IMG/VR virus record: IMGVR_UViG_2862035965_000001
Source of the DNA: a virus
Taxonomy: Duplodnaviria > Heunggongvirae > Uroviricota > Caudoviricetes
Strand: one strand, 5' to 3'
Length of the DNA: 64,000 nucleotides
How positions within the stretch are numbered: the first letter of the stretch is position 1; each line of letters opens with the position of its first letter. Below are positions 25,303 to 41,552 of the stretch, one piece after another. Under the pieces are notes generated by a model that was not told where the DNA came from, did no database searches, and worked only from the letters and a program-made list of their open reading frames with translations. The position numbers and the translations under genes were made by a program.

Positions 25303-27444
25303 TTAGTAGCCGTACTGCGAATCATTGGTTTTTGCTTCAGTCTCACGAACATACGCCTCATAAGGATTCGCAGGTCGATCCTCTGGCAGATTGGATTCAC
25401 GGAAATCATGAACGGTCATATCCAACTGTGCTGCCTGATTAAGCTGTGCCGCTTGTACACGACGGCGAGCTGCCAATTCTCGACCTGATCCACGACTCTC
25501 CTGAGGTCGAACCATAGCATCAGTATACTCGCTCGACGTGTCTTTTTCCATAGTTATGGATTTAACAAAAGCATCCGCATCCTGCCCAAACGTCTGCCCA
25601 TGCTTGCGCACAAACTTATCCAAAATCACTGGGTGATCGCGCTGCATCACCTTCTCAGCCTGATCCATCGCCCACACCTGAACTTCCTTGACCTGCTCAG
25701 TAGTCATCGCAGTCTGGTTGCCATCATCCTGCAGAACCTTAATGGCAGCCTGTGTACGCTGCGCCATAGCAATCTGACGCACCCGAGAAGCACTGCGTCC
25801 GCGTGTATCAAAATCAGGCAACAGTTTCTTCGCAGAGGCAAGACCGCTTTCTGAGACATCAGTAGCCGTCATAAAGCCAGCAACCACATCACGAACACCA
25901 TCGGAACCATGCTGCTCACCAGCCACGCGCATCTCTGTCGCCAAGGTCGCAGCCAGATTGTCCGCGAAATTCTGTACATTACCCATCGGCTCACGAACGC
26001 TGAACCAGCCGGCATTTTTGCTCAAGCCTGCACCATCAGGAAACTGCCATGTCGGTGTCTTAGAGGTCACCATGCCACGTCGTTGTTCACCCAGACGCAC
26101 GGTGCCAAAAGCCGTCTCATTAAACCGGGCAGCATAGCCTGGATCGCGCTCCATACGACGACCCACAATATCGCGGGCAGCGCCATAAATATCCTTCGAC
26201 TTCAGGCCATGCTCTTCGCCCTGTTTGACCACCATGTCAATATCTTCTGCCACCTGTGCAGAGACATCGCTCGCATCCACTATCGCTTGACCATCCGCAT
26301 CTACTTCCCGCATCGCCTCATATGCTTGATCAGATAGCCGCACCACAGTCTGCGCAGCAGAATTCACACTCATGGGGATTCGTTCACGGTTGCTAATAAT
26401 CGCTGTTTTCTGCTGTATAAACGCATCAGAGAGCGACTTCGCTTCCTTCTCCGTCTTATCCCGCGTCAGCTTTGACTTCCAAAAATCTTTGGATACATAT
26501 TTCGACAACTTAGTGTCTTTAGCCTGTTCCAGATCCTTGTTGATCTTGCGCTTCATATCCACATTGACACCGGTCATACGCGGACTCATACACCACATCA
26601 CCGCAGCGGTCGTACATGCCGCCATCACAGTCTGGGTGTTGACACCTTTGCGTAGTGGCCCCATCGCAGCCTGTGCCATCTCTTGTGCAAAGTTATCATG
26701 AGCTGCATTGATCTTCCGCCTACGAGCAGCTGCATCTTTGGCATCCCGTGCTAGGTACGGATTATCACTTTTTGGTGGCTTCGCATACTTCTTTTCCGCT
26801 GCCTTGCGTTCCTTTTTGGCAATATCAATAGGGTCAAGACTCTGCGCATGGACTTCGCGCATATGTAGTTGCCCATCCACACCAGAAAGGTCAGCTTCAT
26901 TATCGACCGCCTCTTGTGCACCACTGAGAGGCACACCAGCATCATCGACTAGTCGATCGCCATCGCTACGATCATCTTGCCCAGCACGCACCCAATGACT
27001 GGTATCAAATTCTTCAACGTCATTGAGATCATCAAAATCAGACGAAGCTGATTCACCAAAAATACTGCGCTGCTCACCGCCATCAACCTCATAGCTCTGT
27101 GTTATCTCAGATGGGTGAAGCTTTCGCCGAGGCAGCACATCACGCAGTGTTTCTGGTTCTGCAGGCTCACCATAAGCAACAGACTGTTGCTCCACACCAA
27201 TAATAGAAGCCAAGTCGCTGCTACTCATGACATTTTTAGTTGGGTCATGCAGCTGCCCCAACGTCTTAGGCCGGGTTAATGACTGGGCCGAAGGTTCCTC
27301 GACACTAACCTCTTCTACCTGTTCACGCACCTGCGCACTTGCTTGTGTAGCAAGACTGATCTCTGCCTCTACGACCGCCTGGGCACGCCGAGCAACCTGC
27401 TCTTCTCGTACCTTATTGTTCTCATTCCCAGCCACTGTTCCCAC
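25303..27444 (-). CDS. Large hypothetical, mostly helical protein
   Basis: 713-aa ORF with AGGAG RBS, in the operon downstream of the RNA polymerase. Confidence 0.75.
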   Translation of the reverse strand: MGTVAGNENNKVREEQVARRAQAVVEAEISLATQASAQVREQVEEVSVEEPSAQSLTRPKTLGQLHDPTKNVMSSSDLASIIGVEQQSVAYGEPAEPETLRDVLPRRKLHPSEITQSYEVDGGEQRSIFGESASSDFDDLNDVEEFDTSHWVRAGQDDRSDGDRLVDDAGVPLSGAQEAVDNEADLSGVDGQLHMREVHAQSLDPIDIAKKERKAAEKKYAKPPKSDNPYLARDAKDAAARRRKINAAHDNFAQEMAQAAMGPLRKGVNTQTVMAACTTAAVMWCMSPRMTGVNVDMKRKINKDLEQAKDTKLSKYVSKDFWKSKLTRDKTEKEAKSLSDAFIQQKTAIISNRERIPMSVNSAAQTVVRLSDQAYEAMREVDADGQAIVDASDVSAQVAEDIDMVVKQGEEHGLKSKDIYGAARDIVGRRMERDPGYAARFNETAFGTVRLGEQRRGMVTSKTPTWQFPDGAGLSKNAGWFSVREPMGNVQNFADNLAATLATEMRVAGEQHGSDGVRDVVAGFMTATDVSESGLASAKKLLPDFDTRGRSASRVRQIAMAQRTQAAIKVLQDDGNQTAMTTEQVKEVQVWAMDQAEKVMQRDHPVILDKFVRKHGQTFGQDADAFVKSITMEKDTSSEYTDAMVRPQESRGSGRELAARRRVQAAQLNQAAQLDMTVHDFRESNLPEDRPANPYEAYVRETEAKTNDSQYGY

Positions 27445-27728: not shown

Positions 27729-28739
27729 TTAGAGCTCAAACCCGCCATCCTGTTGTTGTGGTGGTTCCTGTTGGTTGTAACGGCTTGTATCAAATCGACC
27801 CATAAACTGATTGTTTGCACCACCGTTAGTAAATGGGTTTCCTGTACCTGGCTTCGGTGCAACCGGTGTAGGTGGAACAGAATTTTGTGGTACCGGATTA
27901 TGCACAGGTGGAATATTCTGCTGCTGAGGCACAGCCGGTTGTTGCGCCCCCATTGCAGGTCCCTGATGTCCATAATTCCCGATTTTTCCACCCTGGTCGA
28001 ATGGCTGACCAACGCCCCGGAAGTCCGTCTGAGCAGGTGAAACAGGCTGCTGTACTACAGGTGTAGCTGGTACCTCAGGTTGAGCTACAGGCGAGGTGGT
28101 AGGCAGCTGTTCATAATCAAACTGCCCAACTGCAACCCCAGATACCTCTGCTACATCAGCCACCGGTGCCGGCACCGCAGCTCCCGCACCGACCAACGCT
28201 GGTACACGCCGCTCAATACGGAAACCAGAGCGTTGCTGGACCCGCTCAAAGCTCGCCAATGACTGCTGTGCAGAGATCGACTGAATCTCTACATCAGGGA
28301 TACCAAAACGTGCTGCATCCTCCATTGCCTTGATATTGGCTCGCACCACACGAGGAGCAAAGTCATAGGCATCACCGTCGTAGATGTTGACCTGCTGCTT
28401 TGCCATCTCACACAACAAATCAAAGCGATTCTTCTTATCGCCATAGGCAAGCTGATCAAGTGCTAGTGGCTTAATCTCAGTCGGCAGCTCATCGTGGCTG
28501 AGCACACGCATATAGCCCTGCTCATCAGAGAATTCTTCCGCGATCTTCTCCACCTGGTCAACGCCAACAGAAACACCCATGCCCTTGTCATCGGCGTACA
28601 TCTCCATGTACTGCTGTACCCATTCATCCTTGGTGGCCTGAATAGGCTGGTGGTTGTCATCCTTGACCACCTCCCATTCATAGCGACCTTGCTCATTCTC
28701 GCTTCGACGCATCTTGTGACCTTGATAAAGATCACCCAC
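27729..28739 (-). CDS. C-terminal part of the giant RNA polymerase in a shifted frame (or a separately initiated product)
   Basis: Overlaps the last ~277 nt of the 28463-34246 ORF; adding one base at ATGGGCCC/GTG joins the two in frame. Confidence 0.6.
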   Translation of the reverse strand: MGDLYQGHKMRRSENEQGRYEWEVVKDDNHQPIQATKDEWVQQYMEMYADDKGMGVSVGVDQVEKIAEEFSDEQGYMRVLSHDELPTEIKPLALDQLAYGDKKNRFDLLCEMAKQQVNIYDGDAYDFAPRVVRANIKAMEDAARFGIPDVEIQSISAQQSLASFERVQQRSGFRIERRVPALVGAGAAVPAPVADVAEVSGVAVGQFDYEQLPTTSPVAQPEVPATPVVQQPVSPAQTDFRGVGQPFDQGGKIGNYGHQGPAMGAQQPAVPQQQNIPPVHNPVPQNSVPPTPVAPKPGTGNPFTNGGANNQFMGRFDTSRYNQQEPPQQQDGGFEL

Positions 28740-31700
28740 GGGCCCATGAGAGTTTCTGCACGGTACAACGCATCAATGGGGTCATGCTTTGCCTGCAGAA
28801 TTGACTGTTGCGCTGGTGCAGATGCAGCCATTGCTTCCTTGGTCAGACCTAGGTTGCGGCACAATGCCACCATTTCCTGTTCTTTTTTACCAGCCACACC
28901 GGTAAAGAGCACCTTGATGGCAGTTGCTTTCTGGGAACCCTCATAGTGGCTACGCAGTGCTTGCGCTGTTGGTTGACCTATATCCTTAAAGCCCTGCTCA
29001 GGGTCAGCGCCGATATAGGTGGCATATTCCTTCAGCTTGCCTGGTGAACCTTTCGCGCCCGTTTCAAAGCACTGTGCAACAGAAGACATATGGTTTTCCA
29101 TGCCGTCAAAACGCAGGGTCACCAAACCATCACGGTTGGCAAAAGCCTGTGCATAGTGCTCGTTGAGATCATCCATGTGTGCACGGTTGACCTCTAGTAA
29201 TTCTTCACGGCTAATCTCGCCGGCCTCGTACTCACGCTGGTAGCGGTTAAGCTCAGAGACAATGACCTTCATGTTCTCAGCCATTGCTGGATCATGATGC
29301 TGCGCTACCTGCACATCGAGACTGTCATGCAAGGTCAGCCCATAGAACATCGAGCCGTCCTCCATGCGCTTACCATCACCAAGATCGAGCATATTTGCCT
29401 CAACAGTCAGCCTCGACAGTGCTTCCTCATGCGCCTTTTTCGGCAGATTGCCGACTAGACCCACAGAGTCACCATCGAAGTCACCGTCAAAACTCTTCAC
29501 CGACACTGGGTTAACTGCCACACCATGTAAATCTTCATTGATGACAACTCGCAAATAGCGCACACCACCATCGCGGATCACCGGATCACGCCACACCATC
29601 GCATAACCATTATCGAGGACACCCAACTCTCGTGCCATCGAAGAGTTCATGGCTACTTCATCAACTGCCAGGCGTGGGTCGCCTGTCCACACAGCAGTAG
29701 CGGAGTGTGACTGGCGTGCCGACATGAAGCCATCTTTGAACAGATTGTTCTTGGTCTCAATGCGGCTGGCAACAATATCATTAGCAATCCCGTCAAAGCT
29801 TGCCTGCACCTTTTTCTGTGCCTGATCGACAAACTTCTGTGACTCGCTCAGTCGCTTTTCCGCAGCACGGGGTAACGTGCCATGCTCAGCTTCCTCCTGG
29901 CGCAATGCATCAATCTTGGCTTGCTCTTCTGCCAACTTGTAGCACGTATCAAAAATGGACATGTATCGCGTGGTGTACTCATGTCGAGAGGTACTACCGT
30001 CCGCTAAATCTTCATCACTACGCAGATGCGGGCTGAGCAATGGCAGCTGATACATGCCTGGATTGTTGGGTGATTCTTCCAGCTGTGCGCCATTGCGCAG
30101 CTGCAGCTGAAAGGGAATCTCCATGACGCCACCTGCACGACTGATCTGCTCAACAAAAGCTTCTCGCACCTGTGCGCGATTAACACGATCGTTCAGGTTG
30201 CCGCCCTCATCGTAAATGCTCGGCATTTCGATGACATTGCGCTGCTCATTAGACTCACTGAGTCCCTCACGCAATTCACCATAGGGGGTGACATCAAGAC
30301 CCGTGACCCGCAGATATTCCTGGAAGTTAGACAACGCAGAGACGTTGGTGCCATAAAAGTGCTCCATAATTTCATGGCATTCCTGAGCTTGGAGCACCCA
30401 CGCTAGCTGTGAGGACGCTTTACGCCCCTGACCTTCACGAACAGCGTCTTCGTCATACACATTGGTTTTCGCATCAACAGCCATATGCGTGACGATGAAG
30501 TTGAGATCGCCAGATGCACCCGGCTGCACACGAGTAGAACCGTCATTGTTCCTAAACGTCACATCCTGTGGATCATTCATGAGCTCACGTGCCGTACCAC
30601 CATTAAAACGAGAAATGGCAGAAAACGGACTCATGACAACCTCTAGATCGGGGTTGTCGCGGAAAAACGCCACCTCTGATTCCAGCCCTGCAGCACGTGC
30701 ATCAGCATCACTCATCGCTGGATCAACAACAAGAGCGATCACGCCCTTATTACCGTGGAAGTCAGACAACTTATCACCGGCTACCAGTGGTCGCATCTTA
30801 TCTTCCGTGTCGCGAATAACATGGGTATTCGCAAAATCAGCAGAGACAATAATGCCGTCTTCAAAATTCCAACCATGAAGCTGCGTCATAGCCGTACGTG
30901 CACCACCCGTAACAGCACTAGCCTGCATGATGTTCGAAAACGTCATGTTCTGACGATCATGGGGGTCAAAGCCCATCGCCCACGCCTCAGGATGTGCTGC
31001 AACAGGTACTCGATCAGCCGGGTCACCAGGGGTAATCATGCCATCAGCACCCACCTGCGCAGAGGGCAGCAAATAGCGTACTGAGCCCTGGTTTGCCGCC
31101 ATACCGGTCATCATGGGATCAAAGAACCCTGCGCCGGCATCAACATCAAGCACAGAAATATTGCGCCCACCAGTCAGCACCAGTGCGTCACGAGAGTTAT
31201 CGTTACGCGCATCAAAACCACGCTGCTGTGCCCGAATATCCTCCATCACATTGGCGCCATCACGAATTGAGTTGTCGTAACGCACACGCAAACTCGCAGT
31301 CTCAAGCAACGCAGCGCGCCACTCATCGCTCAAACCTTCTTCAGCACTACGCTCGAAAAAGTCCACTGGGAAGCGATTGTCATACAGTCGCTTATACGCA
31401 CTGTTGATGCTGGTTGTAGCACCCACTCGGGAGCGTTCAGTAAACATCAAATCTTCTCGCACACGGTATGCTAACGCCTCTGACATCACCTGCTCATAGC
31501 CTTTGAGCTTGGTACGCTCTTCTAAACTCTTTGTCTCACTGGGTTTTTGTGGTACCACAGATGCGGTGTAACCAGGGGCGAACATATAGTTCTCGCTACC
31601 ATTAAATTTGGTGACAATTTCACCATGCTCACCGCGAGTAAAAATCTGACCGATCTCGCCTTGCACATGGCGGGTGCGCTCACCGCGAACCTGCCCCTTA

Positions 31701-34246
31701 CTATCTGTGACACGACTATCTTTCGCACCGACACGTCGCTGCGCAGACCACCGGACCACGCCGTTGTCATCAACAGCAATATCAACCACATCAGCACCGT
31801 TGCGAGAAATAGTCTCGGCAATAACGGTGCCGAATCGAGCCAACTGCGGGTCAAGATCCGGGTTGTTAATCATCTTCTGCGCAGTCTCAGGGTTAAATTT
31901 GAGCAGCTGCTGATTAATAACGTCATTATAAAATTCATCACCGCGCAGCTCATCGCCAGTAATCGAAGTTGCTCGCAACGCCGCGATAATATCGTCATGG
32001 TTTGACCACAAAGATTTAGCACTCGGCATGTGCTTCGCCACCGCCACCGGATCAAAACGCAAACCGGTAACCGGATCAGGCTCCACCGTTCCGACATAAT
32101 CGTCAAGAACAAGTGCTGCGTGCGCACGCACACGATCCTCAACAGACGCAGCATTCATTGCTGAGGTCATCGCAGCGATCTGCTCATAATCACCATCGCG
32201 AATTGCAGCCATATAGTCGTCGCGATTGACACCAGGATTAAGCAGGTCGGTCTCTTCTCCACGCAGCATCGCCCAATAGTCCTGCTTTATCGCCATGAGC
32301 ACATCGTCACCGGCAAAAGTTGGCGTGAAATCAGGATCTTCCGCATACTGTGCAGAAAGCGCAATCAGTTCTTCAACGCCAAGCTCCTCAGCCACACGTG
32401 CACGGGTGAGGGCAACACTGTCACTGAGCCATTTCAAGCCACTGTCCTCATCATCAAACCACTTTCCGGGACCAGCACCTCGATCACGTGCATCCTGAGC
32501 GATCGAAAGTCCTTCGCGCACCATAAAAGAGGAACGATTCTTAGTGAAATACGCATCCTGTGCCTGCTCCAACGCACGTGGATGGCGTTCATTAGGTACA
32601 CCAACAAGACCCTTACCATCCTGTCGTTCAACCTCCCGACCGAGAGCAAATTTCACAAGATCGACAACTTCTGCCGGACTTGGCTCATAATCGGTAGCCG
32701 GTGTCCACGTTCCATCACCATTCTCCATGCGCTCACGAGCTCGCAGACGTTCTTCCGCTGTTTGTTCGGCGGAATACTTAATCACAGTGCCAGAATCATA
32801 GACACGACCCACCCACTGTTCATTGGCGCGAGTATCAGTGAGGCGAATATCAATACGGGTGCCCTCAATACGCACTTTGAGCTGCCCCGGCTCACGATCT
32901 GGCTCGATCCTAAAATCCACACCCTCATCGGACAGGTAGGTCAAAATAGCTTCCGAGCGTGCAATACCCTCGTCGGACATGACTTTATTGGGGTCAATTT
33001 TTTGGCTCGCAACATCTGCTGTATCAATCAACCCAGCACGCAACCAGGATGCTGCAGCTCGATATTCTTTCGCCGTCATAAACTGCCCAATATTAGGCAG
33101 TCGCATCTGGTCATTCTCGGTGATGGTACGCCAGGCAATAGCTTCGCCATTGACCCATTGAGTCAGCGGTCGCACACCACCTTTAGTGTCATCTTCTCGG
33201 TGAGTGCCCTCATAGACGTCATTATCCTGCAGATGAATGGTTGCTAGATCAAGATCCCTAATCATGCCAACGCTGTCCTCGGACAGCGACAGCAGCTTGG
33301 TTCCATGCACACGAACTACTTCACGGTCTGACCAGCGTGGATCATAAGGCGAAATAGGTAAACGACGACCACCCAGATCAGGACCCTCAGGCAAACCATT
33401 AGGTCCAATTGCAGCGCCGACCATCTTGTCGAAACGATGACGCAATGCCTGATAGCCCTTTGAGCTTTCACCATCGCGAGCAATCGCATTAAACATAGGT
33501 GCTGCGTGAGGCGCTACCTCAGCAAAGGCAGCATTGACAGAGGCGAAAAATGCCTGAGTACTCCCCCGCTGCTCTACTGGTTCGTAGGCTGCGAGATGCT
33601 CATCAACAAGCGCTCGGATCGCACGGCCATCAGAAGCACTAAGCTGCGACACCCCAGCATTAACGTGTGTACCCCAGGTACCAAACATCTCGACACCTTC
33701 ATAGAAGGCGTATTCCTGAAAATAACTCTCCATCGGATCAATGTCAGGTAGCCCAGCACTTTCTGACTGACGGGCTGATTCTTGTGCAGACACCTGTTCT
33801 GCCTGCGCAGTAGCTTGGTCGCGTTCCTGGAAGATAGCTGCTTGTTCTTGTGCACGCTGTTCAGCTTCAACCTGTGCTTGTAACTGCTGCTGCACCAGCA
33901 CATCATGTGATGTCTTAATAGAGATATAAGACTTTGAGTTAAGTATGTTTTGTCGTGTCACACCAGCAAACTGTGGTCGGTGCACACCGCCATGAGCTTG
34001 AGCATCAGCAGCAAAGGCATCATCGAAAGACGCAAACATGATGGCGCCATAGGTCGCTTCATCATTAAGGTCTAAGCCTTTATTATTTGCTGCGTGCTGG
34101 TTCGCAAAGGCACGTGCCAACTGATAGATACGCGCGGCATCCTGATCGCCCAGTGGAGACTTACCCCAGTGATCTTTTTGACCCCACTCTGAGCGCGCCA
34201 TCTCAAGCGATCGCTCAAAAGCGTGTCGAAATAAAGTTTTGGACAT
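28463..34246 (-). CDS. Single-polypeptide two-barrel RNA polymerase (beta-like and beta-prime-like catalytic domains fused; NCgl1702-like), frameshifted near 28740
   Basis: Beta-like GWNFEDG (~30853-30874) and GDKLSDFHGNKGVI (~30743-30778); beta-prime-like RDPVI and VNP…FDGDFDGD (~29468-29491); GAKGS. Strong GGGAGG RBS. Confidence 0.82.
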   Translation of the reverse strand: MSKTLFRHAFERSLEMARSEWGQKDHWGKSPLGDQDAARIYQLARAFANQHAANNKGLDLNDEATYGAIMFASFDDAFAADAQAHGGVHRPQFAGVTRQNILNSKSYISIKTSHDVLVQQQLQAQVEAEQRAQEQAAIFQERDQATAQAEQVSAQESARQSESAGLPDIDPMESYFQEYAFYEGVEMFGTWGTHVNAGVSQLSASDGRAIRALVDEHLAAYEPVEQRGSTQAFFASVNAAFAEVAPHAAPMFNAIARDGESSKGYQALRHRFDKMVGAAIGPNGLPEGPDLGGRRLPISPYDPRWSDREVVRVHGTKLLSLSEDSVGMIRDLDLATIHLQDNDVYEGTHREDDTKGGVRPLTQWVNGEAIAWRTITENDQMRLPNIGQFMTAKEYRAAASWLRAGLIDTADVASQKIDPNKVMSDEGIARSEAILTYLSDEGVDFRIEPDREPGQLKVRIEGTRIDIRLTDTRANEQWVGRVYDSGTVIKYSAEQTAEERLRARERMENGDGTWTPATDYEPSPAEVVDLVKFALGREVERQDGKGLVGVPNERHPRALEQAQDAYFTKNRSSFMVREGLSIAQDARDRGAGPGKWFDDEDSGLKWLSDSVALTRARVAEELGVEELIALSAQYAEDPDFTPTFAGDDVLMAIKQDYWAMLRGEETDLLNPGVNRDDYMAAIRDGDYEQIAAMTSAMNAASVEDRVRAHAALVLDDYVGTVEPDPVTGLRFDPVAVAKHMPSAKSLWSNHDDIIAALRATSITGDELRGDEFYNDVINQQLLKFNPETAQKMINNPDLDPQLARFGTVIAETISRNGADVVDIAVDDNGVVRWSAQRRVGAKDSRVTDSKGQVRGERTRHVQGEIGQIFTRGEHGEIVTKFNGSENYMFAPGYTASVVPQKPSETKSLEERTKLKGYEQVMSEALAYRVREDLMFTERSRVGATTSINSAYKRLYDNRFPVDFFERSAEEGLSDEWRAALLETASLRVRYDNSIRDGANVMEDIRAQQRGFDARNDNSRDALVLTGGRNISVLDVDAGAGFFDPMMTGMAANQGSVRYLLPSAQVGADGMITPGDPADRVPVAAHPEAWAMGFDPHDRQNMTFSNIMQASAVTGGARTAMTQLHGWNFEDGIIVSADFANTHVIRDTEDKMRPLVAGDKLSDFHGNKGVIALVVDPAMSDADARAAGLESEVAFFRDNPDLEVVMSPFSAISRFNGGTARELMNDPQDVTFRNNDGSTRVQPGASGDLNFIVTHMAVDAKTNVYDEDAVREGQGRKASSQLAWVLQAQECHEIMEHFYGTNVSALSNFQEYLRVTGLDVTPYGELREGLSESNEQRNVIEMPSIYDEGGNLNDRVNRAQVREAFVEQISRAGGVMEIPFQLQLRNGAQLEESPNNPGMYQLPLLSPHLRSDEDLADGSTSRHEYTTRYMSIFDTCYKLAEEQAKIDALRQEEAEHGTLPRAAEKRLSESQKFVDQAQKKVQASFDGIANDIVASRIETKNNLFKDGFMSARQSHSATAVWTGDPRLAVDEVAMNSSMARELGVLDNGYAMVWRDPVIRDGGVRYLRVVINEDLHGVAVNPVSVKSFDGDFDGDSVGLVGNLPKKAHEEALSRLTVEANMLDLGDGKRMEDGSMFYGLTLHDSLDVQVAQHHDPAMAENMKVIVSELNRYQREYEAGEISREELLEVNRAHMDDLNEHYAQAFANRDGLVTLRFDGMENHMSSVAQCFETGAKGSPGKLKEYATYIGADPEQGFKDIGQPTAQALRSHYEGSQKATAIKVLFTGVAGKKEQEMVALCRNLGLTKEAMAASAPAQQSILQAKHDPIDALYRAETLMGPWVIFIKVTRCVEARMSKVAMNGRWSRMTTTSLFRPPRMNGYSSTWRCTPMTRAWVFLLALTRWRRSRKNSLMSRAICVCSATMSCRLRLSH

Positions 34247-34669
34247 AATAAAGTCCTCCCTTTTCTTTATTCTTTTGTCATATCACTAGTGGATATGCGG
34301 ATGTGTGTTATTACATCCATAATCATACTCTAAAACTTAATTGTTTTTAAAGTACTTTTAGAACTAAAAATTAAAGTTGAAAACTTAGGTCTTCAGGTCA
34401 CCGACAACCTCGCTTATGCCTAAAAATTTGTACTCACCCGCCCTTGCGCATTAGGATTCTCTCAGCTAAGACATGTTCACCACGGCACCTAAAAAGACAC
34501 CATCTTGAGCCGCACATTCGTTCACTACATTCACTGAAAAATCTTGTTGACCACTGATAACTAACAAGAAGCGGCAAATATGTGCGGCTTGGCATAAACT
34601 GTGTCAATCGGTACCTGTGTAATAGACACACGGTAAACACGCACAAGATAAAACATTGCGAGATTTTTC

Positions 34670-35761
34670 ATGAGTACAAAACCCACTATTGTGTCCACAT
34701 TTTCTGGTTGTGGTGGTCTTGATCTTGGCCTCCAAGAGGTCGGCTTTGACCCCATTTGGGCCAACGACTTCTCAAAAGAAGCAGTCGAAACCTATAGGCA
34801 CAACATCGGTGACCACATTGTTCACGGTGACATCACTGAGATTGATCCATTTACTGATGACACCATCCCTGACGGCGATCTTGTCACAGGTGGTTTCCCC
34901 TGCCAGGATTTCTCCATGATTTGGAAGCGCCCCGGACTCGACGGCAAGCGTGGCACCCTATACCAAAATTTTCGTGATTTTGTTGCAGCAAAAAAGCCTA
35001 AAGCCTTTATCGCAGAAAACGTCAAGGGACTCCTTACGGCGAACCAACACAAGGCTATTAAGACCATCATCGAAGACCTCGAAGCTGTAGAACCTGGCTA
35101 CATCGTCAAGCCCCGCCTGTACAACTTCGCTGAGTACGGTGTCCCGCAATTCCGTGAACGTGTGCTCATTGTCGGCATTCGTCGTGATACTGGCTTTGAC
35201 TTCAAACACCCCGCCCCCACCCACGGCCCTCGCGGTGACATGCCTTATAAGACTGCCGGCGAAGCGCTCACAGACGTTGAAAAAGTACCCTTCAACAACA
35301 ACCACATGAAGATCATGCCTCGCACCATTGAAGTGCTTAAGCGCATCCCTGAGGGTGAGAACTTCACGGCTATCCCCAAGGATGACCCTTTCTACGTCAA
35401 GGGCATGATTAGCCACGTTTACCGTCGCTTGCACCGTGATGAGCCGTCCAAAACCCTTATCGCCGGTGGCGGCGGGGGTACATGGGGATACCATTATGAG
35501 GAAAATCGAGCATTGACCAACCGCGAGCGGGCTAGAATTCAATCGTTCCCCGATGACTTTGAGTTTTTGGGATCAAACACTGAAGTCCGCCGCCAAATCG
35601 GTAATGCGGTCCCTCCTGTGGGTATGCACGCTGTGGGTGAACGACTGATGAACTTGTACACCGGGAATTACACCCCCGTCGATCTAGAGGAACAGCACGC
35701 GTACTTGCAGACGCTCACCATTAAGGAACGTCTCGCGCTGGCTGATCAGGAAGCTGATTAA
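34670..35761 (+). CDS. cglIM: C5-cytosine DNA methyltransferase M.CglI
   Basis: FSGCGG (motif I), GGFPCQDFS (IV), AENVKG (VI), QFRERV (VIII), RERARIQSFPD and QIGNAVPP (IX-X). Confidence 0.95.
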   Translation: MSTKPTIVSTFSGCGGLDLGLQEVGFDPIWANDFSKEAVETYRHNIGDHIVHGDITEIDPFTDDTIPDGDLVTGGFPCQDFSMIWKRPGLDGKRGTLYQNFRDFVAAKKPKAFIAENVKGLLTANQHKAIKTIIEDLEAVEPGYIVKPRLYNFAEYGVPQFRERVLIVGIRRDTGFDFKHPAPTHGPRGDMPYKTAGEALTDVEKVPFNNNHMKIMPRTIEVLKRIPEGENFTAIPKDDPFYVKGMISHVYRRLHRDEPSKTLIAGGGGGTWGYHYEENRALTNRERARIQSFPDDFEFLGSNTEVRRQIGNAVPPVGMHAVGERLMNLYTGNYTPVDLEEQHAYLQTLTIKERLALADQEAD

Positions 35762-35769
35762 GTAGATAT

Positions 35770-36843
35770 ATGAAGCCCACCGTTAATGTTGTGTTCAATG
35801 CGCATCGACCTAACGATACGCAGCCGTTGGATAAGTTCTTTGATAAAGAACTCAAAGACACGCATCATCTCGATATAACGGTGGGCTATATCAGTGAGAA
35901 ATCACTGCGGTATTTGCGCGATATTCTCGAAGAAAAGACCAACATCACCGCCAACCTCACGTGTGGAATGCACGCTTGTGAAGGCATGACTGCCCCGCAA
36001 TTACATTACGCACGTGAATTACACACGTTCCTCAGTAACAACAATCGTGGCGGAGTTTTCGTACTTCCTCGCCTGCGATACCACGGTAAAATTTATCTTT
36101 TTCACCAACGCACAGCGCCAGATCCAAAAGCATATATCGGCAGTGCAAATCTCTCGGCCATCATTCCCGGCCACGCATCAACTTTCGAGACCGGTGTCAT
36201 GCTTGACCCCGCGCCTACCGAACTCATCCAACATCTTCAACGTGATGTTGAGCCGCTTAAAGTACCCATCGACGAATATCACGTCCCCATTGTCGCTGAT
36301 CAAAACGCCCTGATGCGGGGCGTGTCCAGGGCTGCACCAATGTCAACGTCCCATGTCGTTGCAGTCATGTCTAGCCCTGCTCAATACACCTTTGATCTTC
36401 CGCTAAAAGCCCACCCAAAAAGCAGCCTCAACGCTCACCTTGGCGGTGACGGTGGGCGAATGCAAAAAACCGGACGAAGACTTTCCCGCAAATGGTATGA
36501 GGGTGAGCTCATTGTTGATGAGAAATATCGCGATCTGCCTGGATACCCACAAAAAGGAGTGCCATTTACAGTCATCACTGATGATGGATGGACTTTTGAA
36601 TGCAAGACCAGCGGTGACGGTGGTAAAAATCTTCGAAGTGTTGGCAGTCTTGAGACCTTCGGTGCCTGGATGAAGTCACGGCTTATCGACGCCGGTGCAC
36701 TTGAGTTCGGTGAAACGGCCACCGAAAAAAACATCGAACGATTTGGACGATCCCATCTCACAATGAAGTACCACCCCGACTACAATGTCTGGTCATTCGA
36801 TCTCAGCACTATTACGCCAATCCACCACACTGAACAGGACTAG
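35770..36843 (+). CDS. cglIR: PLD-family restriction endonuclease subunit R.CglI (NgoFVII-like)
   Basis: HGKIY…YIGSANLS (HKD/PLD motif) and a C-terminal DNA-recognition domain; directly after the methylase. Confidence 0.9.
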   Translation: MKPTVNVVFNAHRPNDTQPLDKFFDKELKDTHHLDITVGYISEKSLRYLRDILEEKTNITANLTCGMHACEGMTAPQLHYARELHTFLSNNNRGGVFVLPRLRYHGKIYLFHQRTAPDPKAYIGSANLSAIIPGHASTFETGVMLDPAPTELIQHLQRDVEPLKVPIDEYHVPIVADQNALMRGVSRAAPMSTSHVVAVMSSPAQYTFDLPLKAHPKSSLNAHLGGDGGRMQKTGRRLSRKWYEGELIVDEKYRDLPGYPQKGVPFTVITDDGWTFECKTSGDGGKNLRSVGSLETFGAWMKSRLIDAGALEFGETATEKNIERFGRSHLTMKYHPDYNVWSFDLSTITPIHHTEQD

Positions 36844-36844
36844 T

Positions 36845-38743
36845 ATGAGCGCACCATCACATCTTGAAATTTATACTCAAAGCATCAAAGACAATCCAGA
36901 CCTCAATACCAAAGTCACACAAACTATCAACGCTTTCAACGAAACAGTTTTAGCGGACTACGATTATTTTGGTGATCGGCAGGTACTTCTTTACGGTGAT
37001 GTCCAAAGTGGTAAAACGTCACACATGCTGGGTATTGTCGCTGACTGTTTAGACAAAAACTTCAACACAATTATCATTCTCACCTCGCCTAATATTCGTC
37101 TCGTACAACAAACCTATGACCGTGTATTCCAGTCTTTTTCCAACGTACTAGTGTGCGACAAAGATGACTTTAACGACTTCCGAGCTAATCAAAACCGAAC
37201 CATTCCTCAAAAGTCAATCATCGTCATAGGAAAAATCCCGGCTGTGCTTGATAAGTGGATAGAGACTTTTGATCAAACACAAGCCCTTAGTGGGAACCCT
37301 GTACTCATCATTGATGATGAGGCGGACGCAACAAGCCTTAACACTAAAGTAAACAAAAACGAAGTATCCACCATCAATGACAACCTCAGAAGCATCCGTG
37401 AACTTGCTACTGGATGCGTCTATCTTCAGGTGACAGGCACACCCCAGGCTGTACTTCTACAAACCATCGAAAGCGGTTGGACTGCCGAACAAGCGCTGCA
37501 TTTCGCTCCCGGTGATAAATACATCGGTGGATCACAATTTTTCAACGAATTCCCTAGCCCCTACACCCGACTATTCGCAAACACAGAACAAGATGAGCAT
37601 CGCCACCTTATTGACGCTGTACACACATTTATGTTGACAGCAGCGATGTTCAAGATCAACGGTGAGACCCTGTGCAACATGCTGGTGCATCCCAGCCACA
37701 CCGGTGCAATGCACGATGATTACAGCACCAATGTGAAAGCAATTATCGCAGATACATTCTCTCGTTTTGATGAGCTCGAAATTCAACAGTCTTTAAGACA
37801 GTCCTATGAGCAAATCTGCCAAACATATACCGAGGCACCGTCATTAAAGACCACCCTTGGCGTTGTGAAATTCATGGAAAAGGATTTCAACACCTACATC
37901 ATTAACAGCAAAAATAAGACAGACGAATCTGATTGGGCTAGTGGTTACAACATTGTCATCGGTGGTAACTCCCTTGGACGTGGCTTAACATTCGACAACT
38001 TACAAACCGTTTTCTACGTGCGCGAATCCAAGCGACCACAGGCAGACACCCTGTGGCAGCACGCCCGCATGTTTGGCTACAAACGCCACAAAGACACCAT
38101 GCGCGTGTTCATGCCGGCCACTATTGCTCAAACCTTCCAAGAGGTCTATCTCGGCAACGAAGCTATTAAAAATCAGCTCGATCATGGCACGCATATCAAC
38201 GACATTCGAGTCATTTTAGGTGATGGTGTCGCACCTACTCGTGGCAATGTTCTCGACAAACGCAAAGTTGGAAAACTCAGCGGTGGTGTCAACTACTTTG
38301 CTGCTGATCCTAAAATCAAGAATCTCGAAGCGCTCGACAACAAACTCTTGGCCTACTTGGACAAGCACGGTGAGGACTCCACCATCGGTATGCGGGCGAT
38401 GATCACCATTCTCAACGCCTTTACTGTAGACCCCAACGACCTCGATCTCGCTACATTCAAAGCCGCACTCCTTGACTTTGAGCGCAACCAACCTCATCTC
38501 ACAGCGCGTATAGTGCTGCGAACAAACCGTAAGGTCAATCAGGGTACAGGTGCCCTGCTCTCCCCTACTGACCAAGCACTCAGCCGTGAAGAAGTCACAC
38601 ACCCATTATTGATCCTGTACCGCATTGAAGGTGTTAACGATGCTGCTGCGCAAAGAGGTGAACCTACATGGTCAAGCGATCCTATTTGGGTCCCAAACAT
38701 TAAGCTGCCGGGTCAACGTCAATTCTGGCGCGTAGACAACTAA
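36845..38743 (+). CDS. cglIIR: Helicase/Z1-domain subunit H.CglI
   Basis: GDVQSGKT, IIDDEAD, QVTGTPQ, IGGNSLGRGLT, DTLWQHARMFGY (Z1). Start placed at ATG 36845 (632 aa). Confidence 0.9.
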   Translation: MSAPSHLEIYTQSIKDNPDLNTKVTQTINAFNETVLADYDYFGDRQVLLYGDVQSGKTSHMLGIVADCLDKNFNTIIILTSPNIRLVQQTYDRVFQSFSNVLVCDKDDFNDFRANQNRTIPQKSIIVIGKIPAVLDKWIETFDQTQALSGNPVLIIDDEADATSLNTKVNKNEVSTINDNLRSIRELATGCVYLQVTGTPQAVLLQTIESGWTAEQALHFAPGDKYIGGSQFFNEFPSPYTRLFANTEQDEHRHLIDAVHTFMLTAAMFKINGETLCNMLVHPSHTGAMHDDYSTNVKAIIADTFSRFDELEIQQSLRQSYEQICQTYTEAPSLKTTLGVVKFMEKDFNTYIINSKNKTDESDWASGYNIVIGGNSLGRGLTFDNLQTVFYVRESKRPQADTLWQHARMFGYKRHKDTMRVFMPATIAQTFQEVYLGNEAIKNQLDHGTHINDIRVILGDGVAPTRGNVLDKRKVGKLSGGVNYFAADPKIKNLEALDNKLLAYLDKHGEDSTIGMRAMITILNAFTVDPNDLDLATFKAALLDFERNQPHLTARIVLRTNRKVNQGTGALLSPTDQALSREEVTHPLLILYRIEGVNDAAAQRGEPTWSSDPIWVPNIKLPGQRQFWRVDN

Positions 38744-38767: not shown

Positions 38768-38807
38768 ACAAACACCGCTGTGGAATACTTTCCACAGCGG
38801 TGTTTGT
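38768..38807. terminator. Bidirectional terminator
   Basis: Perfect 18-bp stem ACAAACACCGCTGTGGAA-TACT-TTCCACAGCGGTGTTTGT between convergent genes. Confidence 0.85.
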
Positions 38808-38823: not shown

Positions 38824-40347
38824 CTAAACACCTTCAATGCGCCTAAAGGCTCGCGCGACTTCTTTATCAAAGTGACCTTGGGCAAGATCACGCCAATGCG
38901 GAAGCTTCACCAACATCATGCGGAATGCTCGGGTGGTCTTATATTTACCCATAGCAGACAGCGGATCATCGTCTGTACCAGATAGCGCCTCTTCCCCCTC
39001 AGCGTAGACACGCGACTGCTCCACCCCTGCCTGGGCACGCATAAGTGCAATATCTTCCTGCGACAACGCTTCGATCAGCACAGTGCCATCGACAGCATTA
39101 ACCAAGCCGTTGTTAGCAGTCACCCGGAAATTCGGATCTTGAGCAAAGGCATGGACGCATTCATCATATGCGGCAGTGAGCTCATCTTCGAGTGAATCCT
39201 GCAGGATGCGGTCGAATTGATCAACCAGCATATCTCGTGACACCTTGCCTTCGGCATAACGCTTCAACTGCATGTCAGCGAGCTTATGTTCTGCATTCTC
39301 CTGATCATGGATGAACTCATCGTTGACCTCCGCTTCTTCTGCCAGAGACTTCTTTTCAATCTTCACGCCAGTAGCGACTGGAAAACCTTGTGAACTGTCT
39401 TCAAAATCATCATCAAAGTCGTCGTACTCTGATTCCATGAAGTCACGTGCGTTCATTACAGCTTCATTAGCCTCATCATAATCTGGCGCGTCATCGTACT
39501 CGTCTTTCGCAATCATCGTATCTACGATGTCCATGATTTCTGCCGAGTACACATCCATATCCAGGCGTGCAATATCTGAGTCATCAAGCCCAGTCGCCTT
39601 TTTGTAAATATCGACGGCACGCTGAGTACGAATCGACTGCGCCATACGCTTTTCCAGCATCGCCATAAAGTCCGGTGCATTTTGATTCACATCGAATTCA
39701 TTGGCGCTCGACAGTGTTGGGATAGTCTGCAACGAGTATTCGCGACCCGGTTGGATAATCTGGTTAGCAAACAGCATGAAACTCATCGGCCAAATCGTTT
39801 CATTGCGTGACCACACCGGATACTGACCTGCACGGAAAACAACGGCATTCTGCGATGGCAGAGTATTTAGGTCATTATAAGACACCACCGGCTCTTTCTC
39901 AGTTGCAGACGTATACGACACTTTGCCCTCGGTGCGCATAACTAACTGAGCCAAGTCACGGGTCACTGTCTTTGAGTTCCTGCGTACAACATGCCGTTCA
40001 CCTGACCAGTCCACCAACGTCTTAATCATTGTTTCGTCTGTGGATTTCAAGAAAATAATATTGGACGTGTTGTGGGTCGGGATCATATCGTCAGTGATGT
40101 AGAGATGGTCACGGTCGGCAATGCTGATGCATTGCACGGTGTCGCGACGAGAGAACTCTACAGAGACGATTTCGTTGTTTGCTGCCGGCACATCGAGGCG
40201 TGCCCGATCTGCTGGATCGAAGTTGTCTAAGATCTCTGGCGCCGGCGCTGTGACACCAGGTAGAAACACCCTATCCCCTCGTGCCAGCATCGCTTGAAGC
40301 TCTGCCGTGGTGACGATTCTGCGCTCGCCGGCAATTGTCTGCGTCAT
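38824..40347 (-). CDS. C-terminal half of the VirD4/TraG coupling protein, preceded by a split-intein C-fragment
   Basis: The first 93 aa end in intein blocks F/G (DTVQCISIADRDHLYITDDMIPTHN). They are followed by TSNIIFLKSTDETMIKTLVDWSG…EPVVSYNDL, the canonical TraG/VirD4 C-terminal region. Own RBS (GAAGGGG). Confidence 0.88.
   Translation of the reverse strand: MTQTIAGERRIVTTAELQAMLARGDRVFLPGVTAPAPEILDNFDPADRARLDVPAANNEIVSVEFSRRDTVQCISIADRDHLYITDDMIPTHNTSNIIFLKSTDETMIKTLVDWSGERHVVRRNSKTVTRDLAQLVMRTEGKVSYTSATEKEPVVSYNDLNTLPSQNAVVFRAGQYPVWSRNETIWPMSFMLFANQIIQPGREYSLQTIPTLSSANEFDVNQNAPDFMAMLEKRMAQSIRTQRAVDIYKKATGLDDSDIARLDMDVYSAEIMDIVDTMIAKDEYDDAPDYDEANEAVMNARDFMESEYDDFDDDFEDSSQGFPVATGVKIEKKSLAEEAEVNDEFIHDQENAEHKLADMQLKRYAEGKVSRDMLVDQFDRILQDSLEDELTAAYDECVHAFAQDPNFRVTANNGLVNAVDGTVLIEALSQEDIALMRAQAGVEQSRVYAEGEEALSGTDDDPLSAMGKYKTTRAFRMMLVKLPHWRDLAQGHFDKEVARAFRRIEGV
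40069..40347 (-). other. Split intein C-fragment (IntC, 93 aa, class 3 signature)
   Basis: Block F with Cys at F4 (TVQCISI) and His (DHLY); block G PTHN with Thr at G5; +1 residue Thr (ACG, 40066-40068). Confidence 0.88.
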
Positions 40348-40444
40348 ATTATAAACCCCTTCAATTAAATCAAGTAATTAATATACTAACTTAATTAAGT
40401 TTATTTTTTAAGATTTACTATGCTCTACGCAAACGCACCCAGAA

Positions 40445-40515
40445 TCACCATAAGCACCGTTTCCAGACGCAGAAACTAATTGAGCATATTGTAAAATATA
40501 GCTATGCTGACAATG
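40445..40515 (+). repeat. 71-bp direct repeat, copy 1
   Basis: 67/71 identical to 41553-41623 by manual alignment. Confidence 0.9.
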
Positions 40516-40574
40516 ATTCCGCCACAACCATCTACACAGCTGGTAGATAGAAGCGTTGAGAAGTGCTTTAAGTG

Positions 40575-41354: not shown

Positions 41355-41552
41355 TGAAACTGTGAAGTAAAAGCAGTTTCAATAAAAGCACATCTATACG
41401 TGCTCTCACTATCACTGTGCGCGCATCATAAAAACGCGCAAGCACTATATAAATATCAACAGTTTCTACACAATAATCAGAAAACAATAAATAAGCTGGT
41501 CACCGCAGCAACTCACCCCACCCGGCCCCCTTTTCCCTCGCTGACACCGGAG

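What the first reader, a model, noticed from the sequence alone, without database searches (positions are those of the whole stretch)
27729..34246. Element-encoded single-chain two-barrel RNA polymerase
Seen: one polypeptide carries beta-type motifs (GWNFEDG, GDKLSDFHGNKGVI) followed by beta-prime-type motifs (RDP, NP…FDGDFDGD with all three catalytic Asp). No alpha, omega or sigma genes are nearby. Established: fused two-barrel RNAPs occur in SPbeta (YonO) and were predicted computationally for the C. glutamicum NCgl1702 family; I know of no biochemical characterisation of the latter. Inference: the element has its own transcription machinery, probably for the - strand transfer operons.
Basis: partly seen in the sequence, partly recalled or inferred. 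Interest (0 to 1): 0.78.

Follow-up and report, generated by a model that had tools for sequence, protein, structure and literature searches.

The report
Frameshifted fused RNA polymerase, conjugation module
This gene is a close copy of Corynebacterium glutamicum NCgl1702, a known but biochemically untested single-chain relative of the two large RNA polymerase subunits; here a one-base deletion breaks it, and across bacteria it sits next to the motor protein of DNA-transfer (conjugation) machinery, not in viruses.

Summary
The motifs are real and in the stated order on the minus strand. However, the gene is not one open frame here. A 1-nt deletion at about 28743-28745 splits it into a 1836-codon part (34246-28740) and a 336-codon part (28739-27729). 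The product is 94% identical to a 2169-aa intact protein and falls in the same 90% cluster as NCgl1702 (BAB99168.1). A family profile matches bacterial beta-prime (E 5e-14). A confident AlphaFold model (pLDDT 93.6) aligns to Rpb2/beta, then to Rpb1/beta-prime (Z 11-15), and to QDE-1 and Thermus-phage single-chain RNAPs. All catalytic Asp, Lys and Arg residues are invariant in 112 relatives. No sigma, alpha or omega gene lies in the window.

The context changes the reading. In 77 of 80 related loci the gene directly follows the type IV coupling protein, inside a conserved set: AAA+ ATPase, coiled-coil membrane protein, VirD4, RNAP, 600-700-aa unknown. Relatives occur on plasmids, including conjugative pGKT2, and in none of 50,697 phage records. 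So this is most likely an RNA-synthesising enzyme of the conjugative cycle, not a YonO-style phage late transcriptase. Its activity and template are untested. This scan had already reached the same reading on other genomes, including NCgl1702 itself.

The parts
28740..34246 (-). RNAP gene, homologous part of frame A (codons 1-1836): a Corynebacterium-specific N-terminus (about 175 aa), a family-specific N-terminal module (about 170-905), a beta-like module and most of the beta-prime-like module
   Evidence: 94% identity to the intact 2169-aa P0003 over residues 1-1842. Family conservation starts at about residue 180.
27729..28739 (-). RNAP gene, C-terminal part in the -1 frame (336 codons): about 140 conserved residues plus a variable Pro/Gln-rich tail
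   Evidence: 88% identity to P0003 1843-2169. Residues 1843-1980 are conserved in all 119 relatives compared.
28739..28745 (-). Frameshift site: 1-nt deletion inside ATGGG-CCCGTG. The sequence formally reads G_GGC_CCG.
   Evidence: DNA alignment to L001 (ATGGGACCAGTA).
28463..28738 (-). Out-of-frame extension of frame A (about 90 non-homologous codons up to the stop)
   Evidence: no similarity to P0003 after ...LMGP.
30854..30874 (-). GWNFEDG: beta-type motif holding the invariant Asp (equivalent of beta NFED / Rpb2 D837)
   Evidence: This Asp is invariant in 112 sequences (D237 of A2).
30737..30778 (-). GDKLSDFHGNKGVI: beta-type DPBB motif with the two invariant Lys
   Evidence: G264, D265, K266 and K274 are invariant. 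Also kept in the S. aureus plasmid homolog.
29582..29593 (-). WRDP: switch-2-type Arg and Pro of the beta-prime module
   Evidence: R660, D661 and P662 are invariant. Aligned to beta-prime NRAPTLH.
29468..29491 (-). FDGDFDGD: metal-binding aspartate triad (NADFDGD equivalent) on the beta-prime-type DPBB
   Evidence: D694, D696, D698, G699 and D700 are invariant.
29045..29062 (-). TGAKGS: equivalent of beta-prime SGARGS, about 30 residues before a 33-residue bridge-helix-like helix
   Evidence: second matched stretch; helix at 872-904 of the model; K839 and G840 invariant.
34247..34351 (-). Own translation and transcription signals: GGGAGG Shine-Dalgarno 8 nt before the ATG, and an AT-rich region with a TTTAAA-N18-TATGAT promoter-like site
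   Evidence: These are consensus matches only.
34670..38743 (+). cglIM/cglIR/cglIIR-type restriction-modification cassette, inserted between VirD4 and the RNAP gene
   Evidence: Pfam DNA_methylase, RE_NgoFVII, Z1 in syntenic L001. In other genera VirD4 and the RNAP gene are adjacent.
38768..38807 (-). 18-bp-stem terminator-like hairpin after the VirD4 C-piece; in this genome it uncouples the RNAP gene from the upstream transfer genes
38824..46851 (-). Type IV coupling protein (VirD4/TraG) in two pieces, with intervening genes
   Evidence: T4SS-DNA_transf, TraG-D_C, TrwB_AAD_bind. Homologs lie directly upstream of the RNAP gene in 77/80 loci.
46817..49342 (-). Conserved 841-aa partner: N-terminal domain, acidic linker, long coiled coil and C-terminal membrane helix
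   Evidence: 62-75 of 80 loci; consensus. No Pfam or PDB sequence match.
49483..51270 (-). ClpB-like double-AAA+ ATPase, first gene of the conserved set
   Evidence: AAA_2, AAA; 64-73 of 80 loci.
25303..27444 (-). Conserved 713-aa protein of unknown function, encoded after the RNAP gene (a 91-aa ORF at 27450-27725 lies between them)
   Evidence: 65-73 of 80 loci, same strand, just downstream. No Pfam, NCBIfam, PHROG or PDB sequence match.
55183..57927 (-). MobL-family relaxase of the same minus-strand block
   Evidence: MobL, E 1.5e-57.

Best explanation
The interval holds an ortholog of C. glutamicum NCgl1702. NCgl1702 is a roughly 2170-residue single chain with three parts: a family-specific N-terminal module of about 900 residues, a beta-type double-psi-barrel module, and a beta-prime-type module (DPBB with the Asp triad, SGARGS region, bridge-helix-like helix, C-terminal region).

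The complete and invariant active-site set makes it very probably a Mg-dependent, sigma-independent RNA polymerase. It is a fixed component of a conjugative-transfer gene set found in Gram-positive plasmids and integrated elements: AAA+ ATPase, coiled-coil membrane protein, type IV coupling protein, RNAP, then a 600-700-aa unknown protein.

My preferred mechanism is as follows. Host RNAP expresses the transfer operon, including this gene. The enzyme then makes RNA on element DNA as part of the transfer and establishment cycle. That RNA would be transcripts of element genes and/or primers on the transferred strand.

In this particular genome the gene is cut by a 1-nt deletion about 40 residues after the bridge-helix-like helix. 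This detaches about 140 conserved C-terminal residues. Unless the deletion is an assembly error, this copy is probably inactive.

Shown: homology, fold, conserved catalytic residues, synteny, occurrence on plasmids and absence from the phage records searched, and the frameshift. Inferred: polymerase activity, template, and the link to a step of conjugation.
For: Identity: 94% identical to intact P0003, and in the same 90% cluster as BAB99168.1 (NCgl1702, 2169 aa). The locus is syntenic, with the cglIM/IR/IIR cassette next door.

Polymerase nature:
- The profile hits beta-prime at E 4.6e-14, including RxP, NADFDGD and SGARGS equivalents.
- The AF2 model has pLDDT 93.6 and pTM 0.90.
- In the VIA-align search, model 428-1076/1089 matches Rpb1/A190/beta-prime at Z 13-15 over 450-525 residues.
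- Model 1-408 matches Rpb2/beta at Z 11-12.
- QDE-1 gives Z 14.2, P74 gp62 Z 10.9 and P23-45 gp96 Z 10.6.
- Isolated DPBB domains give Z 8-9 at model 620-745.
- Foldseek top hits are beta-prime at E 2e-11.
- The beta Asp, both Lys, RDP and the Asp triad are invariant in 112 sequences. They are also kept in a 25%-identical S. aureus plasmid homolog.
- 77 of 80 relatives have one ORF of at least 1600 aa, so selection keeps the gene intact.

Conjugation link:
- VirD4 lies upstream on the same strand in 77/80 loci, the 841-aa protein in 62-75, the AAA+ in 64-73, and the 713-aa protein downstream in 65-73.
- The window block also has a MobL relaxase.
- Thirteen plasmids carry relatives, including Gordonia pGKT2 with the same gene order. 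pGKT2 transfers between genera in matings (Jung et al. 2011, as cited in PMC5640721).
- A Staphylococcus plasmid has a coupling protein two genes upstream of its homolog.
- There was no match in 50,697 phage records.

No sigma, alpha or omega gene lies in the window.
Against: No activity has ever been measured for any family member, so function rests on homology. The Pfam Rpb2_6 and Rpb1_2 hits are below the gathering cut-offs.

Synteny with a coupling protein shows co-inheritance, not a shared step. No VirB4-type (PF12846) gene was found in this genome, so the transfer apparatus itself is not fully recognised. The homologous C. glutamicum element (CGP3) is treated as a prophage in the literature (PMC4446434, PMC5137423).

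In this genome the RM cassette and a terminator separate the gene from VirD4, and the ORF is broken. No repeated promoter-like motif that could mark a dedicated regulon was found in the window.
Confidence: 0.6

Rival explanations
1. One reading: an autonomous YonO-style transcriptase of a prophage-like element. It would switch on the minus-strand (late or transfer) operons from its own promoters.
For: YonO is a proven single-chain two-barrel RNAP that transcribes SPbeta late genes (PMC5467207). The gene here has its own SD and a promoter-like site. No sigma, alpha or omega gene is nearby. The C. glutamicum counterpart element is called a prophage (PMC4446434).
Against: In 77/80 loci the gene sits inside the operon it is supposed to activate, downstream of VirD4. 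No phage record carries a relative, but plasmids do. No repeated promoter motif was seen in the window. The protein aligns with Rpb1/beta-prime over about 500 residues, whereas YonO is described as sharing only a few residues with multisubunit RNAPs.
Confidence: 0.15
2. A pilot polymerase. The enzyme acts on the transferred single strand, either as a conjugative primase for complementary-strand synthesis or as an early transcriptase. It may itself be exported through the coupling protein into the recipient, in the manner of virion RNAPs of crAss-like phages or P23-45 gp96.
For: The gene is fixed next to the coupling protein, and a ClpB-like unfoldase-type AAA+ belongs to the same set. Structural relatives include QDE-1 and the tape-measure-fused virion RNAP gp96, which enters the host with the DNA (PMC10770324). 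From my own knowledge, plasmid primases Sog and TraC are transferred to recipients.
Against: There is no direct evidence of export or of activity on single-stranded DNA. A 2000-residue protein is a demanding secretion substrate. The C-terminal tail is not conserved, so no shared export signal is visible.
Confidence: 0.2
3. State of this copy: the 1-nt deletion is a real mutation, and this strain carries a dead or crippled gene in a decaying element.
For: The frameshift removes about 140 residues that are conserved in all 119 relatives. These residues lie within the part of the model (up to 1076-1089) that aligns with Rpb1/beta-prime. The exact broken product is seen on this one contig only, while intact 2169-aa forms are on at least 190 contigs. 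The assembly is a single contig with 100% marker completeness, so it is not riddled with indels. The adjacent VirD4 is fragmented and an RM cassette has been inserted.
Against: The site is a GGG/CCC run, a classic place for sequencing or assembly indels. Both frames are otherwise free of further damage, with 94% and 88% identity.
Confidence: 0.45
4. State of this copy: the full-length protein is still made, by a programmed -1 ribosomal frameshift at G_GGC_CCG.
For: A -1 slip on this heptamer would give MGPVGDL, exactly the ortholog's sequence. An 8-bp hairpin starts 3 nt downstream. The 109 nt after the site fold with z -3.3.
Against: Orthologs at 94% identity, and 77/80 relatives, use one continuous frame. 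The heptamer arises automatically from deleting the third base of GGN before CCC. To my knowledge CCC is not a typical slippery triplet. The 3-nt spacer is short. The hairpin sequence is largely dictated by the conserved GDLYQG coding sequence and is weaker in L001.
Confidence: 0.05

Closest known systems
[quoted passage not shown] 2003, as cited in PMC2919709; Ruprich-Robert & Thuriaux 2010, PMC2919709; Iyer et al. 2021, PMC7824862)
   Same: Same 90%-identity cluster. Same neighbours, the cglIM/IR/IIR cassette. Same motifs and same beta::beta-prime order. Like NCgl1702, it is still without biochemical data.
   Different: This copy carries a 1-nt deletion that splits the 2169-aa frame at residue 1842/1843. 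The 2010 paper saw no relatives of NCgl1702. Now there are at least 443 clusters at 50% identity (E<=1e-30) across Actinomycetota, plus distant ones on Staphylococcus and Lactococcus plasmids.
Cellular multisubunit RNAP large subunits (bacterial beta/beta-prime, Rpb2/Rpb1)
   Same: The two DPBB catalytic modules have identical key residues. Profile E 5e-14 to beta-prime. Structural Z 13-15 (Rpb1-type) and 11-12 (Rpb2-type).
   Different: The modules are fused in one chain. The 900-residue N-terminal module has no recognisable fold match. Pfam scores fall below the family cut-offs. No alpha, omega or sigma partners are encoded nearby. According to PMC7824862 the family lacks the SBHM 'flap' insert; I did not test this.
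YonO of Bacillus prophage SPbeta (PMC5467207)
   Same: A single-chain two-barrel polymerase on a mobile element, and a proven DNA-dependent RNAP. This shows that such minimal enzymes can transcribe without sigma.
   Different: YonO is a roughly 100-kDa protein encoded by a phage. It is reported to share only a few residues with multisubunit RNAPs and to lack a trigger-loop homolog. The present protein is twice as long, keeps long beta-prime-like regions, and is encoded on conjugative-type elements, not phages.
QDE-1 and Thermus phage P23-45/P74-26 RNAPs (gp96 virion, gp62/gp64 non-virion; PMC10770324); crAss-like phage phi14:2 gp66
   Same: Single-chain two-barrel enzymes that align over the whole catalytic core: QDE-1 Z 14.2 over 506 residues, gp62 Z 10.9, gp96 Z 10.6, gp66 Z 7.3. 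gp96 and gp66 travel with the DNA into the target cell, which is a possible functional analogy for a coupling-protein-linked polymerase.
   Different: No detectable sequence similarity. Those enzymes are viral or eukaryotic. Delivery of the present protein is only a hypothesis.

Membership tests
Two-barrel (double-psi beta-barrel) RNA polymerase superfamily | Two DPBB domains forming the catalytic core | tested here: met
   AF2 model with pLDDT 93.6. Isolated and designed DPBB domains match model 620-745 at Z 8-9. Rpb2/beta matches model 1-408 and Rpb1/beta-prime matches 428-1076. The model is of the 94-96% identical intact ortholog P0003:900-1990.
Two-barrel (double-psi beta-barrel) RNA polymerase superfamily | DxDxD metal-binding triad on the beta-prime-type barrel | tested here: met
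   FDGDFDGD at P0001 1586-1593. It aligns to NADFDGD and is invariant in 112 sequences.
Two-barrel (double-psi beta-barrel) RNA polymerase superfamily | Two basic residues and one Asp on the beta-type barrel, plus the Arg and Pro of the RxP motif (the eight invariant residues of PMC2919709) | tested here: met
   GWNFEDG, GDKLSDFHGNKG and WRDP are present. D237, K266, K274, R660 and P662 of A2 are invariant.
Two-barrel (double-psi beta-barrel) RNA polymerase superfamily | Templated NTP polymerisation | not testable with these tools
   No biochemical report was found for any family member.
[quoted passage not shown] | Close sequence relationship to NCgl1702 along the whole length | tested here: met
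   Same 90% cluster as BAB99168.1. 94% and 88% identity to P0003 over the two frames.
[quoted passage not shown] | One uninterrupted chain of about 1800-2200 residues | tested here: not met
   A 1-nt deletion at 28743-28745 splits the frame. 77/80 relatives are uninterrupted. The gene lineage is the same, but the product here is not the fused full-length chain unless the deletion is an assembly error.
[quoted passage not shown] | Absence of the SBHM 'flap' insert in the beta-type barrel (PMC7824862) | not tested
   No residue-level superposition was available.
YonO-like single-chain RNAPs | Detectable sequence or structure relationship closer to YonO than to other two-barrel enzymes; about 100 kDa; phage-encoded | tested here: inconclusive
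   No YonO entry appeared in the PDB-based searches, so no direct comparison was possible. Length (about 2170 aa), the long beta-prime-like regions and the absence of phage relatives argue against membership.
Canonical bacterial RpoB/RpoC | Scores above curated family cut-offs (Pfam, NCBIfam) | tested here: not met
   Rpb2_6 scores 20.5 bits against a cut-off of 23.4, and Rpb1_2 scores 19.2 against 25.3. NCBIfam rpoB scores 14.5 bits against 896.
Conjugative (type IV coupling protein-linked) gene module of Gram-positive plasmids/ICEs | Encoded next to a VirD4/TraG coupling protein on elements with a relaxase | tested here: met
   VirD4 lies upstream on the same strand in 77/80 loci. A MobL relaxase is in the window. 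pGKT2 (typed MOBP) has the same order. In this window a 4-kb RM cassette separates the two genes.

The most novel reading that the evidence does not exclude
The NCgl1702-type polymerase is a conjugation-specific 'pilot' enzyme. It is handed to the type IV coupling protein, perhaps after unfolding by the co-encoded ClpB-like AAA+. It then enters the recipient with the single strand, where it primes complementary-strand synthesis and/or transcribes establishment genes independently of the host RNAP. This would be the conjugative counterpart of the injected virion RNAPs of N4, crAss-like and P23-45 phages. It would also help explain transfer of elements such as pGKT2 between genera.
Probability: 0.15. 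Interest if true: 0.9.

Novelty: already known. Interest (0 to 1): 0.45.

Why it matters
The protein itself has been known since 2003, and the 2010 review (PMC2919709) called it 'enigmatic'. That context was already seen by this scan on other genomes, and I did not find it in the papers I could search. The family is large. It is kept intact under selection. It is essentially always encoded beside the type IV coupling protein of Gram-positive conjugative plasmids and integrated elements, and it was not found in any phage record searched.

If the enzyme is active, conjugation in these bacteria includes an element-encoded RNA-synthesis step that no textbook model contains. pGKT2 is a conjugative plasmid that can be tested by mating, so the question is now directly testable. 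It also suggests that the 'cryptic prophage' CGP3 of the industrial species C. glutamicum is at least partly a conjugative-plasmid-derived element. This particular copy is a poor experimental subject because it is frameshifted.

Tried and rejected
- Single-sequence phmmer against PDB found nothing. Only the family profile reached beta-prime.
- Pfam, NCBIfam and PHROGs gave only sub-threshold RNAP hits.
- The N-terminal module (P0001 170-905) folds confidently (pLDDT 91.5). Its best structural match is only Z 5.7, to the T4 MotA C-terminal DNA-binding domain at model 244-368. That is too weak to use.
- The conserved partners of 841 aa and 713 aa have no Pfam, NCBIfam, PHROG or PDB-profile match.
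- A VirB4-type ATPase (PF12846) was not found in this genome.
- 150 other species of the same genus had no match at E<=1e-20, so distribution within the genus is patchy.
- A search for repeated motifs that could be dedicated promoters found nothing convincing. Sigma-70-like and terminator-like sites in 25-39 kb are no more frequent than in shuffled sequence.
- I first read AKHDP (residue 1819) as a trigger-loop His. I dropped this because it lies only about 20 residues after the bridge-helix-like helix and I had no residue-level superposition.
- Iyer et al. 2003 could not be read, so it is cited only through PMC2919709.
- I did not run complex prediction, because no binding claim is made.
- I could not decide between sequencing error and real mutation. 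A genome-wide frameshift census needs a reference proteome that I did not have.

Full report
OBSERVATION

The minus strand between 34246 and 27729 holds two overlapping reading frames. GWNFEDG is at residue 1125, GDKLSDFHGNKGVI at 1157, WRDP at 1552 and NPVSVKSFDGDFDGD with the triad at 1586-1593.

After ...AETLMGP, frame A turns into about 90 codons with no similarity to any relative. The homologous sequence continues in the -1 frame from GTG 28739 to 27729 (P0002, 336 codons). An intact 2169-residue relative (P0003) aligns at 94% identity with frame A up to residue 1842, and at 88% with P0002 from residue 1843. DNA alignment with its syntenic locus L001 shows one missing base: ATGGG-CCCGTG here against ATGGGACCAGTA there. 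So the motif observation is right, but the 'one polypeptide' claim does not hold for this genome as assembled.

No Sigma70_r2, alpha or omega match of the genome falls in the window.

IDENTITY

P0001 and P0003 belong to one 90%-identity cluster. That cluster also holds BAB99168.1, the C. glutamicum ATCC 13032 protein NCgl1702 (2169 aa). The intact forms are seen on at least 190 contigs, while the broken product is seen only on this genome's contig. The neighbouring methylase and two restriction genes match the arrangement in L001.

NCgl1702 was described as a distant beta::beta-prime fusion and as 'enigmatic' (PMC2919709). [quoted passage not shown] I found no biochemical work on it.

IS IT A TWO-BARREL POLYMERASE?

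Single-sequence searches are weak. Pfam Rpb2_6 and Rpb1_2 fall below their cut-offs, and PDB phmmer finds nothing.

A profile of 112 relatives (A2) matches bacterial beta-prime at E 4.6e-14. The match runs over beta-prime 240-498 and aligns the RxP and NADFDGD motifs. A second stretch ends at the SGARGS equivalent, TGAKGS.

An AlphaFold model of P0003:900-1990, built with this alignment, is confident (pLDDT 93.6, pTM 0.90). An all-against-representatives structural search gives these matches:
- Rpb1, A190 and beta-prime chains align to model 428-1076/1089 at Z 13-15, with 450-525 aligned residues.
- Rpb2 and beta chains align to model 1-408 at Z 11-12.
- QDE-1 gives Z 14.2 over 506 residues spanning 12-1071.
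- Thermus phage gp62 and gp96 give Z 10.5-10.9, plant RDR2 Z 10.5 and crAss gp66 Z 7.3.
- Isolated or designed DPBB domains give Z 8-9 at model 620-745.

Foldseek agrees, with beta-prime at E 2e-11. The beta-type Asp, the two Lys, the RDP motif and the Asp triad are invariant in all 112 sequences. They are also retained in a 25%-identical S. aureus plasmid protein. Activity remains untested.

ARCHITECTURE

Relatives share P0003 residues of about 180-1980. The first 175 residues and the Pro/Gln-rich tail after about residue 2000 are specific to Corynebacterium.

The N-terminal module (P0001 170-905) folds confidently (pLDDT 91.5) but has no convincing structural match. The best is Z 5.7, to the T4 MotA DNA-binding domain.

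The frameshift falls at model residue 943/944. That is about 40 residues after a 33-residue helix which sits where a bridge helix would be (helix 872-904, about 30 residues after TGAKGS). The roughly 140 conserved residues beyond it lie within the part of the model (to 1076-1089) that aligns with Rpb1/beta-prime. A product truncated here would lack a conserved piece of the core.

CONTEXT

The window's minus-strand block contains, in gene order:
- a MobL relaxase;
- a ClpB-like double-AAA+ ATPase;
- an 841-aa protein;
- a VirD4 coupling protein in two pieces;
- the plus-strand RM cassette;
- the polymerase gene;
- a 91-aa ORF;
- a 713-aa protein.

I fetched 79 loci from 111 matching species genomes and one Arthrobacter locus. 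The genera include Streptomyces, Arthrobacter, Kribbella, Nocardiopsis, Actinomyces, Microbacterium, Promicromonospora, Brevibacterium and others, plus three metagenome bins labelled Clostridia, Muribaculaceae and Parvibacter.

In these 80 loci, VirD4 lies directly upstream on the same strand in 77. The 841-aa protein is present in 62-75, the AAA+ in 64-73, and the 713-aa protein lies directly downstream in 65-73. The RM cassette is thus an insertion into an otherwise contiguous VirD4-polymerase pair. A strong terminator-like hairpin follows VirD4 here. The polymerase gene has its own GGGAGG ribosome-binding site and a promoter-like site.

A translated search found no relative in 50,697 phage records but found thirteen plasmids. 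One is Gordonia pGKT2, which has the same gene order. pGKT2 was transferred by mating to Gordonia, Rhodococcus and Nocardia (Jung et al. 2011, as cited in PMC5640721). It also shares the alpAC genes with CGP3 (PMC4446434). Staphylococcus and Lactococcus plasmids carry distant homologs; in the S. aureus plasmid examined, a coupling protein lies two genes upstream.

The family has at least 443 clusters at 50% identity, and 77 of 80 copies are one long ORF. Within the genus it was found only in this genome among 151 sampled.

INTERPRETATION

The best-supported reading is an element-encoded, sigma-independent RNA polymerase that belongs to the conjugative-transfer gene set. It is expressed together with the coupling protein and makes RNA on element DNA during transfer or establishment.

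That version fits less well, because the gene lies inside that operon and has no phage relatives.

A more adventurous variant has the enzyme working on the incoming single strand, and perhaps travelling with it. This is suggested by three things: the fixed position beside the coupling protein, the co-encoded unfoldase-type AAA+, and precedents among injected phage RNAPs (PMC10770324). It is unsupported by any direct evidence.

THE FRAMESHIFT

Three readings remain.
- A real mutation. The broken product is unique to this contig, the assembly has 100% marker completeness, and the element shows other signs of decay.
- An assembly error. The site is a GGG/CCC run, and both frames are otherwise clean.
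- A programmed -1 shift. The site formally reads G_GGC_CCG, a slip would give exactly the ortholog's sequence, and a hairpin follows. However, relatives use one frame, and the heptamer is an automatic by-product of the deletion.

I rate these at about 0.45, 0.4 and 0.05. The remainder covers other outcomes, such as independent translation of the C-terminal piece.

EARLIER NOTES OF THIS SCAN

I derived the VirD4 synteny before reading notes from other genomes. Those notes reached the same conclusion for NCgl1702 itself and for other family members. This is therefore a repeat find on new DNA, not an independent confirmation of function.

VERDICT

This is a known protein family and a near-identical ortholog of a described gene, broken in this genome. 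The conjugation link is the interesting part, and it is testable.

Noticed in passing
window 34670-38807: The cglIM/cglIR/cglIIR-type restriction-modification cassette (plus strand) sits exactly between VirD4 and the polymerase gene. These two genes are adjacent in other genera. An 18-bp-stem hairpin at 38768-38807 lies between the convergent ends of VirD4 and the last restriction gene. This looks like an insertion into the transfer operon.
   Followed up: partly
whole window; L084 (pGKT2): The element homologous to the C. glutamicum 'prophage' CGP3 carries a MobL relaxase, a coupling protein, a lysozyme-type hydrolase (62707-63921) and the polymerase module. It shares that module and alpAC with the conjugative plasmid pGKT2. 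No phage record matched the polymerase. The element may be largely a conjugative-plasmid-derived island.
   Followed up: partly
window 31532-33739 (P0001 residues 170-905): A 730-residue N-terminal module, conserved across the family, folds with pLDDT 91.5 but has no structural match above Z 5.7. The top match is the T4 MotA C-terminal DNA-binding domain, at about residues 413-537.
   Followed up: partly
window 46817-49342 and 25303-27444: Two conserved partners have no known family. The 841-aa protein has a conserved N-domain, an acidic linker, a long coiled coil and a C-terminal membrane helix. The 713-aa protein is always encoded just after the polymerase. Either could be an accessory factor of the enzyme.
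   Followed up: partly
window 15151-17055 (+) and 49483-51270 (-): The window has two ClpB-like double-AAA+ ATPases on opposite strands. Both find homologs in the related loci, so one may be a paralogue of the conserved module gene.
   Followed up: no
L085 (S. aureus plasmid NZ_CP150776.1), 4790-23008: A staphylococcal 55-kb plasmid typed 'non-mobilizable' has a coupling protein, a 1787-aa polymerase homolog with intact catalytic motifs, a topoisomerase and a tail-lysozyme-like hydrolase in one direction. This could be an unrecognised conjugation system. Similar hits occur on Lactococcus dairy plasmids.
   Followed up: partly
window 28630-28738, minus strand: The 109 nt after the frameshift site fold more stably than shuffles (z -3.3). 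They include an 8-bp hairpin 3 nt after the G_GGC_CCG heptamer and a longer second hairpin.
   Followed up: partly
L082 (Arthrobacter sp. Hiyo8, AP014719.1): This is the only full-size related locus in which the polymerase ORF across the catalytic region is short (1370 aa). It may be another broken copy.
   Followed up: no
L048, L063: Family members occur in metagenome bins labelled Clostridia and Muribaculaceae, outside Actinomycetota. L063 lacks the usual VirD4 cluster assignment upstream. These could reflect real spread or binning error.
   Followed up: no
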